From positions 13,642 to 77,641 of the IMG/VR virus record IMGVR_UViG_3300027864_001020: a stretch of DNA of 64,000 bases, one strand, 5' to 3'. Positions 1,306 to 61,601 of this stretch are shown in pieces (the first letter of the stretch is position 1; every line of letters begins with the position of its first letter). The notes under the pieces are model-generated. The model did no database searches. It saw only the letters and a program-made list of their open reading frames with translations, and was not told the DNA's origin. Position numbers and translations under genes: made by a program. Origin of the DNA: a virus.

Positions 1306-3459
1306 TTATGAAGGTATTTCTACATTAACAACTATTTTCATCTCTCTAAATGTATCTATTATATTCTGTAGCAATCTATGTACTTCGGTATCAGGAGTCA
1401 TTTCGATTCCTTTATTTATGGCATCTCTATCATTCGCTAACGCTCTCTGTTCAGGTGTTAATTCCTTTAAATAATTAAGAACGTCTATAAATGATTTTTG
1501 TTTTTCTGGATTATCAAAACTATCTCTAAGACCAATAAGCCGGTCGTGTGCCTCTTTATCACCTTCATTATCAAGATCAAAATACCCCCGACTTTGATGT
1601 CTCCCAGTATTTCTTCCTACAAACATAAGACGATCCTGTGGGCTTCCTCTCGTCATAGCTATGGCATCCTTTAATGCCTTTGCATCTTCACGCACAGATT
1701 CCGGCAGTTTCTCATAATCAGTAAGCGAAATCTCGTCAAGATTAGGTAAACTATAATCTTTCTCTCCTTTCAAATGTGCTAAAATCGCCGCAACATCACT
1801 TTGAGTTTTTTCCAGCACTTTCAGTTCCTTCGCAAATTCCATACTGCCGATGCTTGCAAGGGTAACATTTATTCTGTTTAAAGAATCTTGGAGTAATTGC
1901 GAATCTGATTGCATACGTGGATCTTTTGTAAATCTTTTTATGTCTTCTTCAAATTGTTTCGCGTTAAAATTAAAACTTGTAGTACCGTCTTCATTTTTGA
2001 CCATTGAATTTTTATACATTGACCATACTTCGGTCGCGCCGTGATAATTAAGCCCGAACATAGTTTTAAACCGCTCAATTATTCCGGCTGTGTTATTGCC
2101 TTCAAGCTTGTTAATGGCTTCAAATTGTCCTTTTAATAAGTTCGCCGATACTCCATGTTCGAGCAATAACTGTTCGTCTACATAAGTACCTGTATAAAGT
2201 TTTGGGTCTTTCCCTGCGGCGATAAATTTTTTCTCTCTCTCGTTTTCTTCAGTCTCCGGATCATCTATCCCTAATATTTCACGTGCAACTGAAAAACTTA
2301 TAACATCCTCAACGCTTTGCAAATTGGTAGCGTTAGCAATCGCGCTGTTCATTTGGCTTAACCGCTGCGCTCCCTGTTCGCCCTGCCATAATTTTGAACC
2401 GCCCGACAATTTGTAAAGCATCGTCATGTTACCGGCGATCTCTTCGGAACTTCTCACAAACCCCTTGGCGATCCCCTCTTCCATAATTCTGCCCATAGAA
2501 GTAAGGAATTCAGAAAACTGTCCCTTCCCCATATTCGATGCCATGAGTCCGCCGTAGGCTGTCGATGTTGCGTTTGTTTCTCCGCCGTAACGATAAGCCG
2601 TCCCCGCGTATTTTTGAATTGCGGAAAGATCCGTTCCTGTAAACCTCGACCATAAGGCTTGTGTTTGCGCCATGTTACGCGCTTGCGTTTCGGTTATGTT
2701 TCCGAATTTCCCCGCCTCTTTCATCGCATCGATAAAATCCTGCGTTGACAGTCCTGTTCCTGACGCGGCTTCTGACGCTTTCGAATACATTGAAAGACCG
2801 TAACGGTTGTTTTCTTCGGCTGATTTCCTGTCAACCGCTCCGCCGAAAAGCTGGTTAAGTGTATCAATATGCGGTAAGACGTTTTTATACTGCTGCGATC
2901 CTGCGGCGGTTATCTCGGCTTGTCTCGCATCATAACCGAAAGCGTGTTTTAACAACGGGTTTAAAACGCTCATAGCGGCGGCGGCTAATTGCGGACTTTT
3001 GAATACAACGCCCAAAATTGCGGACAGACCCGTTCCAACTACATCACCTGCTAACTCACCCTTCGCTCTTGTTTCGGATATATGAGCGCCCATATAATCA
3101 CCGCTTAACTTTTGCACTTTTGCGGAATGAAAAGCCTCCGCCGTTTTTACAATGCTTTGGGATAATTGGCTTAAAGCGGATTGAAACATAATGAAAGCAC
3201 CGTTCTGCATTATAGCGTTTGCCATATTTTGCTGCGCTTGCGGGTTTTGTTGTTTGACCTGATTCATTATTTGCCCGCGGGCGGACGTAGCATTATTCAT
3301 TGCCTGTGTAAGTTGGGCAACAGCTCTCCAATCCCCCGCGTTTGTAGCTTGTACTATTTTATTATTTAAATCCGCTATGGTATTCGACAGATCATTAACT
3401 TGGCTTTTTCCCTGTGAGACATCTACATTAAACTTGATACCAATATTACTTTGAGCCAT
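1306..3459 (-). CDS. Tail tape measure protein
   Basis: 717 aa, Ala/Gly/Gln-rich, helical; follows sheath, tube and chaperone. Confidence 0.8.
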   Translation of the reverse strand: MAQSNIGIKFNVDVSQGKSQVNDLSNTIADLNNKIVQATNAGDWRAVAQLTQAMNNATSARGQIMNQVKQQNPQAQQNMANAIMQNGAFIMFQSALSQLSQSIVKTAEAFHSAKVQKLSGDYMGAHISETRAKGELAGDVVGTGLSAILGVVFKSPQLAAAAMSVLNPLLKHAFGYDARQAEITAAGSQQYKNVLPHIDTLNQLFGGAVDRKSAEENNRYGLSMYSKASEAASGTGLSTQDFIDAMKEAGKFGNITETQARNMAQTQALWSRFTGTDLSAIQKYAGTAYRYGGETNATSTAYGGLMASNMGKGQFSEFLTSMGRIMEEGIAKGFVRSSEEIAGNMTMLYKLSGGSKLWQGEQGAQRLSQMNSAIANATNLQSVEDVISFSVAREILGIDDPETEENEREKKFIAAGKDPKLYTGTYVDEQLLLEHGVSANLLKGQFEAINKLEGNNTAGIIERFKTMFGLNYHGATEVWSMYKNSMVKNEDGTTSFNFNAKQFEEDIKRFTKDPRMQSDSQLLQDSLNRINVTLASIGSMEFAKELKVLEKTQSDVAAILAHLKGEKDYSLPNLDEISLTDYEKLPESVREDAKALKDAIAMTRGSPQDRLMFVGRNTGRHQSRGYFDLDNEGDKEAHDRLIGLRDSFDNPEKQKSFIDVLNYLKELTPEQRALANDRDAINKGIEMTPDTEVHRLLQNIIDTFREMKIVVNVEIPS

Positions 3460-3598
3460 TTAAATCCATCCCCGCGACATCTTCATCGGAATACCCCAGC
3501 CGCTTCATAATGTCCTCGCTTGGTCCCGACTCATTATCTGCCCGTAATTTTAAAAATCCGTGCAATACAGAATCTTCTGTGAAGGTGTTTGCAAAATT
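3446..3598 (-). CDS. Tail chaperone C-terminal extension (gpT-like; frameshift product or overlapping ORF)
   Basis: Frame +1 relative to the chaperone fills the gap to the tape measure and ends ...SEDIMKRLGYSDEDVAGMDLNGSK. Confidence 0.5.
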   Translation of the reverse strand, partial: NFANTFTEDSVLHGFLKLRADNESGPSEDIMKRLGYSDEDVAGMDLNGSK

Positions 3599-4154
3599 AA
3601 ATATTATCTCCAGCAGATTCGGATCCACCTCGCTTAACGGTTCCGCCAACTCCCGAAAATAGACCACCGCCCACATCTTTGGAAACACCATCGGATATTT
3701 CTTCAGCAGTTTTGTTATTGGCATTTCGCTCAATTCCTCTAAGTTTTGTCTGCACGTTCTGACGAAAGGACAGAGCCTTAGCATACACTTCGTCTACGAA
3801 GTGAGCGTCAGGCATATTCCTCCATGAAAAATTAGCGTCTTTTTTGGCTTGGTTAAACCACGCGGGACCGCTGTCAACAACTACATCAAGGGTAGCGACT
3901 TTTTGAATTTCGTAATCCCCTGAAACATCAAAATTCCCTGCCGATATGCCGTTTCTCATAATTGCGGCTAACCTTCCAATTGCGATCAAATCGTTCTGTT
4001 TCGGGAATTTAATAACAAAATTGCCTCTTGAAGTAGAGACAGTTTCTTTAACCGTTTTTCCGTTTAGTAAAGCAAAAAACAGATCGCCTTCTTTTTGATC
4101 CGCTTCCGATATGCCTTCTTTTTCCTGCTGTTTGATTTCTTCTGTAATTTCCAT
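3597..4154 (-). CDS. Tail assembly chaperone (gpG-like)
   Basis: 185 aa, acidic; lies between tube and tape measure; AGGAG RBS. Confidence 0.75.
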   Translation of the reverse strand: MEITEEIKQQEKEGISEADQKEGDLFFALLNGKTVKETVSTSRGNFVIKFPKQNDLIAIGRLAAIMRNGISAGNFDVSGDYEIQKVATLDVVVDSGPAWFNQAKKDANFSWRNMPDAHFVDEVYAKALSFRQNVQTKLRGIERNANNKTAEEISDGVSKDVGGGLFSGVGGTVKRGGSESAGDNI

Positions 4155-59358: not shown

Positions 59359-60396
59359 TTACACCACCTTCTTTGCGGTTACGGTTAATCTGTCTGAAGG
59401 GGTAACTTTGGAATATTGATCATACAGACCGGCATCTTTCAGGGCATCACTGTCAACACTACGTCTGTCAAAAAAAGACCATGATACTGAATATTGATCG
59501 CCGGAAGCGGAAAGTTTACGCTCTGTTTTACTTGGCTTCGCTCTTGCTATTAAACTTGATTTAAGCTCGATTTTAACGGCTTTGTCTTCTTTTTCAAGCG
59601 GCGCAATTTGCTCTTTCAAATGACAGATTTTTCTGCACATATTTAATTCATTGGCTGTGAGCGTTAATGGCGCAGCGCAGCCTTCGTACATTCCTGTTAT
59701 CATGTCATCTTCGGCAGGGATGCCGACCGCAGGGGGACGGTTTTCGGGGATTACGTTTTCGTTCCAAAACTTTGTTTCAACGGTCAGCATTTTTACAATA
59801 AATTGATCATTGCGGAAAATTACATAATCTTTGATTTCTTCGGTATCAAGGAAACAGGCGGAAATAACAAACCATTTTAAACCTAAAACGTACATATAAT
59901 GTTGTACTTGCGCAAAATACGAATCGGGAATTTCATCTTCGTTAAAATCATAACCATACTTTGATGATTTGATTTCAAGTCCACCAAAACCGGCAATTTC
60001 TTTATCGTTGATGATAACAGGATTTTCCGCATATATTATGCCGTCTACGTTAGCCGACATATAATCGAAATCGGGTGAGTAGAACATATAAGGAACTGTA
60101 AATATTTTCAGTTCGGGATGCGCTTCGGCAAACCAATTTCTTATAACAGGCTCCAAGAGTTTACCTCTCTTCGCCGCCGGACTCATATCAGCAGATTTGT
60201 CTTTGCCTTTTTTCTGCCAATAAATAGTATTAGGGCTGCCGTATTCGCCGTTTAAGAGCATGAGGCTTCCGGCATCCGAACCGCCGATACTGTTTCGGCG
60301 CAATATTAACCAGTCTTCATAAGTCATTGTGTCTGTCTGTATTGTTTTACAGCGATCAAACAATGGCTGTAATTGCTCATTCATAATTTCCTCCAA
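59359..60396 (-). CDS. YqaJ-like viral recombinase/exonuclease
   Basis: WLILRRNSIGGSD...RGKLLEP...SANVDG...LEIK...YFAQVQHY. Confidence 0.9.
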   Translation of the reverse strand: MEEIMNEQLQPLFDRCKTIQTDTMTYEDWLILRRNSIGGSDAGSLMLLNGEYGSPNTIYWQKKGKDKSADMSPAAKRGKLLEPVIRNWFAEAHPELKIFTVPYMFYSPDFDYMSANVDGIIYAENPVIINDKEIAGFGGLEIKSSKYGYDFNEDEIPDSYFAQVQHYMYVLGLKWFVISACFLDTEEIKDYVIFRNDQFIVKMLTVETKFWNENVIPENRPPAVGIPAEDDMITGMYEGCAAPLTLTANELNMCRKICHLKEQIAPLEKEDKAVKIELKSSLIARAKPSKTERKLSASGDQYSVSWSFFDRRSVDSDALKDAGLYDQYSKVTPSDRLTVTAKKVV

Positions 60397-60420
60397 TCAA
60401 AAAATTTTCCTTGCGGAATA

Positions 60421-60555
60421 TGGGAGCGGTGAGATTCGAACTCACACTTCGCCAATGGGATACTGCACGACCGGATCATTTAGCGTCTGATCTGGACTGC
60501 GCGGACATCATGCAGCGCCTTAGTCGGTTGCGTTTGCCAATTTCGCCACGCTCCC
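60421..60555 (-). tRNA. tRNA-Leu-like RNA with an ~40-45 nt expansion in the anticodon region
   Basis: Acceptor GGGAGCG/CGCTCCC plus discriminator A; Leu-type D arm TGGCGAAATTGGCAAACGC; T arm GTGAG-TTCGAAT-CTCAC; CT-AAG-G at positions 32-37; 135 nt total; no encoded CCA. Confidence 0.7.
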
Positions 60556-60860
60556 TAAAATCGGGGGTGAGCGATTCAACTGGAACCCACGCCCCGACCT
60601 GCCGTTCCGATATAGCTACCTTCGTTACGGCTTTTATAATTTTTTCGCATTCATTTTTCAATTTCTTCAGCCAGGGCGTGGAATAGGAAATCCCCTATTA
60701 AACCTCATTTCCCATCTTTTATCTCTTATTTTTCCCCAATGGGCAGGGCAAACAAAACCGTTTCGTTTAACGGTTTTTGTTACACATTTTGCCAGTAATA
60801 TTTCAATTTCACGCCAATAAGCGAAATAATTAAAATATATAAGCAAATACACAAATACCA

Positions 60861-61601
60861 TTACGCGATTACCTCGATTCCGGTAACAAGTTTTTTGATA
60901 AACTCGACAATGCTGTTCATTGCTTTAATCGTCCATGCGCCGCCGTCTGCCTCAAATAGCGCAACTGTTGGCTGTTCGTTGCTGTCAAGGCGGACGCGCA
61001 AGAGGAATTCGCCTTCGGGCTGTTCAATTTCCCGGAACGTTCTGTAAGGTGAAAGATTTACAATGGCTTTCAATTCTTCCGTACCTTTTAATGCGCCCGA
61101 TACGCCTCTTTTTACGCCGACCTTTTGGGTAATTCCGTCATCTTGCGTGTCGATCTGCGTTCCGCCGGTCAACTTCGATGCGTATTCGAGTACATAATCG
61201 AAATCGTCATTTTCTTTTTTTACAAAAAGAGAGCGGAACATGATCGCAAATTCTTCTTGGGAGAAAAACCTGCCGAATGGGTATTTTATTAATTCGCTGC
61301 TTATTGTTGCGGAAATAAGAGATGTTCGTTTTTTTTCTTCTTCATCGTATGCTGATATAAGATCAACAGATTCATACGAGTTTACGATAATAAGGTGAGG
61401 CTTGCCTCGAATTGCTTTGTCAATGTCATTGTTAATGAACTGACAGAAACCGCGCAGGTTATAAACGGTAAGCGTTTTGGGCTTTGGGTTGAATATGACA
61501 GGCGTCAGGTTTACGGCGGTATATTGCCGACCGTCAGCTTCTACTGTCATTCCATTTTTTACCAATTCTTCAATTTTGTTAATTGCTTGTACGTCATCCA
61601 T
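60861..61601 (-). CDS. Conserved phage protein
   Basis: LSPYRTFREIEQPEGEFLLR...ALFEADGGAW. Confidence 0.7.
   Translation of the reverse strand: MDDVQAINKIEELVKNGMTVEADGRQYTAVNLTPVIFNPKPKTLTVYNLRGFCQFINNDIDKAIRGKPHLIIVNSYESVDLISAYDEEEKKRTSLISATISSELIKYPFGRFFSQEEFAIMFRSLFVKKENDDFDYVLEYASKLTGGTQIDTQDDGITQKVGVKRGVSGALKGTEELKAIVNLSPYRTFREIEQPEGEFLLRVRLDSNEQPTVALFEADGGAWTIKAMNSIVEFIKKLVTGIEVIA

What the first reader, a model, noticed from the sequence alone, without database searches (positions are those of the whole stretch)
60421..60555. 135-nt tRNA-Leu-like RNA with an intact elbow but a swollen anticodon arm
Seen: a perfect 7-bp acceptor stem, A discriminator, Leu-type D arm and canonical T arm. 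After ACCGA-CT-AAG-G (a Leu AAG loop with G37) come about 40 extra nt before (T)CCGGT closes the stem, followed by a long variable arm. The insert has its own GATCA/TGATC hairpin, and an alternative 9-bp helix CTGCATGAT/GTCGTGCAG is possible. Known: 37/38 is the archaeal/eukaryal intron site, but I find no bulge-helix-bulge, and the insert is too short for a group I intron. Inference: a non-decoding tRNA mimic (decoy for anticodon nucleases, or a ligand for LeuRS or T-box elements), or a tRNA needing unknown processing.
Basis: partly seen in the sequence, partly recalled or inferred. Interest (0 to 1): 0.7.

Follow-up and report, generated by a model that had tools for sequence, protein, structure and literature searches.

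The report
Oversized tRNA-shaped RNA cassette in prophage
A termite-gut bacterial virus carries a gene for an RNA with the complete outer frame of a transfer RNA but an oversized middle that should not read codons; related viruses swap different middles, or a normal tRNA, into the same spot, so it is probably a maintained tRNA look-alike whose job is still unknown.

Summary
The element is real and lies on the minus strand (60555->60421) in the early recombination operon of a termite-gut Treponema prophage, 37 nt before yqaJ. Acceptor, D and T arms, elbow bases and A73 are intact; CCA is not encoded. CU-AAG-G is probably a tRNA-Leu relic (0.25% of shuffles). Splicing is unsupported. In 16 of 26 related loci the same region holds tRNA-shaped shells of 57-144 nt. 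They are swapped as cassettes (flanks 90-96% identical, middles unrelated; one locus has a plain tRNA-Glu), and most sit right behind a strong hairpin. Sister middles covary, but no homologue of this middle was found. At least 83 other viral shells share the design, as does phage T5 RNA1 (function unknown); this scan noted similar RNAs on other DNA. Best reading: a non-decoding natural 'tRNA scaffold', cut out by RNase P/Z, that carries an exchangeable structured cargo. The main rival is a plain mRNA-cutting signal. No expression data were available.

The parts
60421..60555 (-). Whole tRNA-shaped RNA, 135 nt, CCA not encoded
   Evidence: RF00005 43.6 bits; ARAGORN -i; identical in an independent assembly L070
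60549..60555 (-). Acceptor stem 5' strand GGGAGCG (G+1)
   Evidence: 7/7 Watson-Crick pairs with 60422-60428
60530..60546 (-). Leu-type D arm (3-bp stem, A14 A15, G18 G19)
   Evidence: The 20-mer spanning the arm occurs in dozens of phage tRNAs, mostly tRNA-Leu
60518..60523 (-). CT-AAG-G, probable relic of a tRNA-Leu anticodon loop; not an exposed 7-nt loop in the favoured fold
   Evidence: 0.25% of shuffled middles; resembles host tRNA-Leu(UAG); fold
60446..60529 (-). 84-nt middle (positions 26-48): extended branched arm replacing anticodon and variable arms, ends in U48
   Evidence: Constrained fold; no homologue in 2.6 Mb of fetched loci or 218 host-family genomes
60463..60515 (-). 9-10-bp helix, 60507-60515 paired with 60463-60471
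   Evidence: Pair probability about 0.83; helix of 10 bp or more in 3% of shuffles
60474..60492 (-). GATCA/TGATC hairpin with 9-nt loop
   Evidence: Pair probability 0.87
60429..60445 (-). Canonical T arm (5-bp stem, TTCGAAT loop)
60421..60428 (-). Acceptor 3' strand and A73 discriminator
60558..60600 (-). Terminator-like leader hairpin with T-run, ending 2 nt before the shell
   Evidence: -20.6 kcal/mol, z -2.1; the Treponema-prophage shells average z -2.8 upstream versus about -1 for other phage tRNAs; missed by the strict terminator scan
60407..60418 (-). Trailer hairpin TTCC-GCAA-GGAA (GNRA loop) between the discriminator and the yqaJ ribosome-binding site
   Evidence: A TTCCG..CGGAA-type hairpin with covarying arms follows the last shell in most relatives
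59359..60384 (-). yqaJ viral recombination exonuclease, next gene downstream (SD GGAGG at 60390-60394)
   Evidence: PF09588 E 6e-19; nearest homologues are 59-65% identical, one named from Treponema sp. R6D11
60667..60861 (-). 64-aa hydrophobic-then-basic ORF upstream; similar small ORFs are called in several relatives
60861..61601 (-). Conserved 246-aa phage protein of no known family, upstream marker of the slot

Best explanation
A non-decoding tRNA-shaped small RNA, in effect a natural 'tRNA scaffold'. Shown: an intact acceptor/D/T shell with an 84-nt non-anticodon middle sits in an exchangeable slot of the early operon of termite-Treponema prophages, between a leader hairpin and a trailer hairpin. 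Inferred: (1) it is co-transcribed with the leftward early operon, having no promoter of its own. (2) Host RNase P cuts at G+1 and RNase Z after A73; CCA is then added, as for the host's CCA-less tRNA genes. (3) The elbow makes the product stable, the ribosome cannot decode with it, and the two mRNA pieces keep protective hairpins at their new ends. (4) The swollen arm is a structured cargo exchanged between phages like an accessory gene. Most likely it binds or decoys a host or rival-element protein during early infection (anti-defence). This copy probably descends from a tRNA-Leu that gained about 40 nt and refolded. My odds: non-decoding and maintained by selection about 0.8; the full scaffold-plus-cargo reading about 0.5; anti-defence as the cargo's role about 0.3.
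For: Perfect shell. Shells occur upstream of yqaJ in 14/26 related loci by script plus 2 by eye, against 0 in reversed or reverse-complement controls. Cassette swaps: L077 vs L079 have flanks 96%/90% identical and middles 41% (random baseline 50%); L085 vs L086 have upstream flanks 93% identical, one with a 129-nt shell and one with a canonical tRNA-Glu. Middles are themselves conserved in sister families: L078/L107 middles are 72% identical with flanks at 56%/42%; 12 of 44 pairs show two-sided changes, 6 of them inside the middle. A G19-C56 to A19-U56 elbow swap occurs in L083. Wider class: the acceptor closes in register in 83/101 distinct viral hits versus 0-6 when slid, with 44 different acceptor sequences; U48 in 80/82, A73 in 65/82, U33 at chance. 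Treponema MAGs carry RNase P RNA (4/4) and RNase Z (5/5), and their tRNA genes lack CCA. Engineered shells with foreign RNA in the anticodon arm are processed and stable in E. coli (PMC3753655). T5 RNA1 has the same build and is annotated as a stable RNA.
Against: No homologue of this particular middle was found, so its own covariation is untested, and its fold is no more stable than shuffles overall. Sister-family covariation rests on three related sequences each, and the shuffle control is not significant (39/500). Ten of 26 related loci have no shell before yqaJ, so it is dispensable. No target, partner protein or antisense match was found. The anti-defence role is inference from the swapping pattern only.
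Confidence: 0.5

Rival explanations
1. Cis-acting mRNA punctuation only (a bacterial-phage 't-element'). The shell serves to have RNase P and RNase Z cut the early operon before yqaJ. The middle is free filler and the excised RNA is a by-product.
For: The slot accepts a canonical tRNA, an armless 57-nt shell or swollen shells. A strong hairpin ends 2-5 nt before most Treponema-prophage shells (mean z -2.8) and a hairpin precedes the yqaJ SD. The acceptor and T stem are the best-kept parts, while D arms and T loops vary. t-elements act this way in plant mitochondria (PMC1920247).
Against: Middles of 74-93 nt are conserved with compensatory changes across prophages whose flanks are unrelated. 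Up to four shell-like elements share one intergenic region with no gene between them (L076). Frequent whole-cassette replacement is not needed for a cutting signal. The upstream hairpin entries are not independent, and in the wider class the hairpin excess is no greater than for canonical phage tRNAs.
Confidence: 0.25
2. A tRNA-Leu that was recently inactivated by a ~40-60-nt insertion and is now a neutral pseudogene riding in a slot that tolerates tRNA genes.
For: The Leu-like CU-AAG-G and a GATCCGGT stretch resemble host tRNA-Leu(UAG). The middle has no homologue and no excess overall stability.
Against: All 15 shell pairs and the tertiary bases are intact while the anticodon stem is not. 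Nine other related loci hold equally swollen shells with unrelated middles. The 9-10-bp helix joins insert and former variable arm, and a helix this long occurs in 3-6% of shuffles. No intact Leu gene was seen at this slot.
Confidence: 0.15
3. An intron-containing tRNA-Leu(AAG) spliced at 37/38 by unknown machinery.
For: ARAGORN -i reads a 61-nt intron after G37. Either excision gives a cloverleaf that ARAGORN accepts at a relaxed threshold. CTT is 26% of Leu codons in the prophage. [quoted passage not shown]
Against: There is no BHB at 37/38 and no group I ends (the 5' exon ends in G and the insert does not end in G). No PF01974 endonuclease was found in the prophage or four host-family MAGs, which are incomplete. 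Product A has a 4-bp stem with an A-C mismatch, a G-U pair and no variable arm; product B has an A31-C39 mismatch and an unpaired variable arm. 0/82 class members keep a Leu loop.
Confidence: 0.06
4. A LeuRS- or T-box-specific ligand (leucylated mimic or amino-acid-sensing decoy).
For: A73, U8-A14, A15-U48, G18-U55 and G19-C56 are kept, and the anticodon arm is dispensable for leucylation (PMC2377443). The wider class keeps U48 and A73. Some host-family MAGs have T-box leaders.
Against: LeuRS also needs the variable-arm orientation (PMC2377443), which the favoured fold lacks. Slot relatives use non-Leu D arms and G or C discriminators. T-boxes need an exposed anticodon. The wider class was selected with a Leu D-arm pattern, so it is biased towards Leu identity.
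Confidence: 0.12

Closest known systems
Phage T5 RNA1 (AY543070 30501-30644, annotated 'tRNA-like stable RNA with unknown functions'), also T5 RNA2
   Same: 7-bp acceptor position, Leu-type D arm (74% identical), ~80-nt middle ending in U48, canonical T arm, 131 vs 135 nt, no encoded CCA
   Different: Unrelated middle (54%, random level). T5 RNA1 lies in a large tRNA cluster of a lytic phage, whereas this one is alone in a prophage early operon, in an exchangeable hairpin-flanked slot.
Phage T4 RNA C and RNA D (species 1 and 2 RNAs)
   Same: Phage RNAs of 120-140 nt with unknown role (PMC3014915, PMC9697503); RNA C has a canonical T arm
   Different: RNA C has an imperfect acceptor and no recognisable D arm; RNA D has no shell by my finder; both lie in the tRNA cluster.
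Engineered tRNA scaffold (acceptor, D and T arms with foreign RNA in the anticodon arm; PMC3753655)
   Same: Same architecture; the predicted processing and stability rest on this precedent
   Different: Man-made. Here the cargo is natural and of unknown function.
Plant mitochondrial t-elements / tRNA punctuation (PMC1920247)
   Same: tRNA-like structure inside a long transcript, a likely RNase P/Z substrate next to mRNA ends
   Different: Organellar, usually degenerate. Not exchanged as cassettes, and no conserved large insert.
Bacterial class II tRNA-Leu
   Same: D arm, A73, elbow bases, possible anticodon-loop relic
   Different: No 5-bp anticodon stem with a 7-nt loop and no paired variable arm; about 50 nt too long.
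Allo-tRNAs and irregular tRNA polycistrons (PMC5389517)
   Same: Irregular tRNAs in mobile DNA, some apparently not used in translation
   Different: Those have 8/4 or 9/3 acceptor branches and anticodon loops; this one is 7/5 with the anticodon domain replaced.

Membership tests
Canonical tRNA-Leu (class II) | 7/5 acceptor-T branch, D arm, elbow bases, A73 | tested here: met
Canonical tRNA-Leu (class II) | 5-bp anticodon stem with 7-nt loop | tested here: not met
   66-nt insert; both candidate stems have probability 0.02 or less
Canonical tRNA-Leu (class II) | Paired long variable arm | tested here: not met
   Unpaired in splice product B and used by the 9-bp helix in the favoured fold
Canonical tRNA-Leu (class II) | Leucylation by LeuRS | not testable with these tools
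   Needs an assay
Archaeal/eukaryal BHB intron tRNA | Bulge-helix-bulge at the splice sites releasing a canonical tRNA | tested here: not met
   One chance-level geometry elsewhere; costs 11 kcal/mol and gives a non-tRNA product
Archaeal/eukaryal BHB intron tRNA | Splicing endonuclease (PF01974) in phage or host | tested here: inconclusive
   0 of 5, but the records are incomplete
Group I intron in bacterial tRNA | Catalytic core (>200 nt), 5' exon ending in U, intron ending in G | tested here: not met
   Insert of 41-66 nt, no Rfam intron hit, ends do not fit
Allo-tRNA | 8/4 or 9/3 acceptor branch | tested here: not met
   Branch is 7/5 (PMC5389517)
Integrase att-site tRNA remnant | Partial tRNA duplicated at a prophage end next to the integrase | tested here: not met
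   Single copy, internal to the operon; the integrase lies beside tRNA-Thr 10 kb away
T5 RNA1-type tRNA-like phage RNAs (no formal family) | Intact acceptor/D/T shell with a large non-anticodon middle | tested here: met
T5 RNA1-type tRNA-like phage RNAs (no formal family) | Sequence homology of the middle to T5 RNA1 | tested here: not met
   54% versus a random baseline of about 50%
T5 RNA1-type tRNA-like phage RNAs (no formal family) | Accumulates as a stable RNA in infected cells | not testable with these tools
   No RNA run was listed
t-element / tRNA punctuation | RNase P/Z cuts define neighbouring mRNA ends | not testable with these tools
   Substrate shape and host enzymes are present; no RNA-end data

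The most novel reading that the evidence does not exclude
Phages use the tRNA outer frame as a natural expression scaffold for a large, exchangeable repertoire of structured RNA cargos, inserted as cassettes at fixed operon slots and acting as RNA-based anti-defence or regulatory factors.
Probability: 0.3. Interest if true: 0.82.

Novelty: new variant of a known kind. Interest (0 to 1): 0.52.

Why it matters
T4 RNA C/D and T5 RNA1/2 have been known for decades without a function. These data suggest the T5 RNA1 design is very common in phage DNA, invisible to default tRNA finders and without its own Rfam family. The Treponema prophages give natural swap pairs (the same flanks with a normal tRNA, an armless shell or different swollen shells), so 'cutting signal versus functional cargo' becomes directly testable. 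If the cargo reading holds, phages have an overlooked class of RNA accessory genes, and nature anticipated the engineered tRNA scaffold. If only punctuation holds, it shows organelle-style tRNA punctuation in phage operons.

Tried and rejected
Default ARAGORN: nothing found. BLASTN against cultured phages: only short D- or T-arm matches. Single-protein locus searches in viral contigs: no close relatives. The exact D-arm pattern returned mostly ordinary tRNA-Leu plus about 10 swollen shells. The T-arm+TTCCG pattern returned only unrelated tRNAs or chance hits. Homologue of the middle: none in fetched loci, among 101 class members, or in 218 host-family genomes; a strict swollen-shell pattern hit 0/218 host-family MAGs. 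Antisense target in the prophage: nothing beyond 10-nt chance matches. Own promoter: none on the minus strand; the plus-strand promoter-like hits are near chance (4 vs 2.2 +/- 1.5). Sequencing runs: no RNA holder listed, which is no evidence either way, so read laying could not be used. The closest homologues of the 246-aa protein lie in other phage types without the slot. The VIPR preprint does not mention tRNA-like elements, so no link to the VIPR locus 4.5 kb downstream is claimed. Five literature searches found no paper on this class; the library lacks most subscription journals and the old T4/T5 papers. Larkin et al. 2002 on minimal tRNA-Leu was not held. A hammerhead-like core in sister family B was considered by eye and rejected (core not intact). 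tmRNA and Y RNA were rejected: no G3-U70, and the D stem and linear acceptor are present.

Full report
Setting. The window is part of an 88-kb IMG/VR provirus. The neighbours are SSB, YqaJ, an SMC-like ATPase, an exonuclease and RecT, all on the minus strand. The closest YqaJ homologues are 59-65% identical; the named ones and the matching genome records are termite-gut Treponema. The integrase and a tRNA-Thr(TGT) lie about 10 kb away at the prophage end. The element is single-copy, so it is not an att remnant. It is identical in an independent assembly.

Observation. The element runs 60555->60421. Rfam scores it as a tRNA (43.6 bits) with 66 nt inserted in the anticodon loop. Default ARAGORN misses it, and the intron mode calls Leu(aag). 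All 15 pairs of the acceptor, D and T stems are Watson-Crick, the tertiary bases U8/A14, A15/U48, G18/U55 and G19/C56 are present, the discriminator is A, and CCA is not encoded. With the shell fixed, the middle folds as one long branched arm built on the 9-bp helix (probability 0.83) and the GATCA hairpin (0.87). The middle is not unusually stable overall (z -0.3), although a 10-bp helix occurs in only 3% of shuffles. CU-AAG-G is unlikely by chance (0.25%) and, with GATCCGGT further on, resembles host tRNA-Leu(UAG). Descent from a tRNA-Leu plus an insertion is therefore plausible; that is ancestry, not the present fold.

Splicing. Removing 61 nt gives a 74-nt type I cloverleaf with a 4-bp anticodon stem; removing 42 nt gives a 93-nt one with an A31-C39 mismatch and an unpaired variable arm. 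The only BHB-like geometry is elsewhere, is found in 28% of shuffles, costs 11 kcal/mol and yields no tRNA. Group I ends do not fit. No tRNA splicing endonuclease was found in the prophage or four incomplete host-family MAGs.

Relatives. DNA around YqaJ homologues shows tRNA-shaped shells upstream of yqaJ in 14 of 26 loci by script and in two more (L077, L108) by eye; reversed and reverse-complement controls give none in 37 kb. Lengths run from 57 nt with no anticodon arm (L243) through a canonical tRNA-Glu (L086) to 125-144 nt. They are exchanged as cassettes. L077 and L079 share 96% of the upstream 150 nt and 90% of the downstream 60 nt, but their middles are unrelated (41%; random 50%). L085 and L086 share 93% upstream and hold a 129-nt shell and tRNA-Glu respectively. 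Two sister families keep their middles. Family A (L078, L109, L107) has 72-80% identity, even where the flanks are unrelated, and 12 of 44 pairs with two-sided changes, six of them in the middle. Family B (L072, L079, L083) keeps an 8-bp inner helix and shows a G19-C56 to A19-U56 swap at the elbow. These sets hold three sequences each, and the shuffle control is only suggestive (39/500). Most shells are preceded at 2-5 nt by a strong, often T-tailed hairpin (mean z -2.8, against about -1 for other phage tRNAs or shells; entries are not independent). The last shell is usually followed by a TTCCG..CGGAA-type hairpin before the yqaJ ribosome-binding site. Ten loci have no shell at the slot. No homologue of this element's own middle was found.

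Wider class. In 83 of 101 distinct hits a 7-bp acceptor closes exactly in register (0-6 when slid), with 44 different acceptor sequences. U48, not part of the pattern, is present in 80/82 and A73 in 65/82. U33 is at chance (20/82) and none keeps a Leu anticodon loop. CCA is encoded in 2/99 hits, and most loci contain no ordinary tRNA. Selection therefore acts on the elbow and acceptor, not on decoding. This sample is biased towards Leu-type D arms by construction.

Mechanism. Shown: the shell, the slot, the swaps, conserved sister middles and the flanking hairpins. From established knowledge: RNase P removes leaders, RNase Z cuts after the discriminator of CCA-less precursors, and CCA is then added (PMC10424219). 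Treponema MAGs have both nucleases and CCA-less tRNA genes. Shells with foreign RNA in the anticodon arm are processed and stable in E. coli (PMC3753655). Inferred: the element is cut out of the early transcript as a stable non-decoding RNA, leaving hairpin-protected mRNA ends. Its middle is a cargo under its own selection, most likely acting on a host or rival protein (scaffold plus cargo about 0.5; anti-defence about 0.3). The rivals are pure mRNA punctuation as with t-elements (PMC1920247; 0.25), a fresh pseudogene (0.15), a LeuRS/T-box ligand (0.12; could coexist with the main reading, since the anticodon arm is dispensable for leucylation but the variable-arm orientation is not, PMC2377443) and a spliced tRNA-Leu (0.06). 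No RNA data were available.

Known relatives. T5 RNA1, annotated 'tRNA-like stable RNA with unknown functions', has the same build: Leu D arm, 80-nt middle ending in U, canonical T arm, 131 nt. Its middle is unrelated. T4 RNA C and D are remoter analogues, also of unknown role (PMC3014915, PMC9697503). Earlier notes of this scan pointed me to T5/T4 and to t-elements and report similar RNAs on other DNA; I checked the T5 and T4 records myself. I found no paper describing the class, the cassette exchange or the hairpin-flanked slot, within the limits of the library.

Verdict. A real, non-decoding tRNA-shaped RNA of the T5 RNA1 kind, in a new setting that shows cassette-like exchange. New variant of a known kind, interest 0.52.

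Noticed in passing
L076:3267-3965: A 780-nt intergenic region before yqaJ holds three shells (99, 79, 77 nt) plus a 43-nt acceptor/T-arm minihelix near 3440-3485 and further hairpins, with no called gene between them.
   Followed up: partly
L243:1586-1706: Two tandem tRNA-shaped shells with no anticodon arm (57 nt and about 58 nt) at the same slot.
   Followed up: partly
L078:3854-3934, L109:2339-2418, L081:3426-3506, L088:3280-3360: 80-81-nt tRNA-like genes with enlarged, non-canonical anticodon stem-loops and intact shells.
   Followed up: partly
L072, L079, L083 shells (alignment A3 columns 43-60): Conserved GAAA...AGTA motif capping the inner helix, reminiscent of a loop E / sarcin-ricin motif (by eye only).
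   Followed up: no
L076 about 3630-3655, L108 about 2325-2347, L081 after 3506, L088 after 3360: A recurrent hairpin, CAGCCC-GGAAAGAC-GGGC, abuts shells on either side; no Rfam hit in the loci scanned.
   Followed up: no
L072:3735-3775 and equivalents in L076, L077, L078, L079, L084, L108, L109, L111: A conserved element GGAGG-TGTTACCGGG...CCCCGCGGTAAACC lies upstream of the slot, after the small ORF; it is present even in L084, which has no shell, and is not obvious in the window.
   Followed up: no
window 60667-60861 (-): Conserved 60-85-aa ORF with an aromatic/hydrophobic N-terminus and a basic tail, often not called by gene finders.
   Followed up: no
It lies in the same operon 4.5 kb downstream; no link to the shell was found.
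   Followed up: partly
L114-L230: One shell with acceptor AGTCAGG/CCTGACT recurs in dozens of unrelated viral contigs with entirely different 63-92-nt middles; L188 carries two shells 600 nt apart.
   Followed up: partly
G000 85022-85094 (outside the window) and 85190-87964: tRNA-Thr(TGT) beside the integrase is the probable attachment site; it is followed by a kinase-ankyrin repeat gene, probably of the host.
   Followed up: partly
G005:C16:160-396, G004, G002: T-box riboswitch matches in termite-gut Treponema MAGs (one above the gathering score).
   Followed up: no
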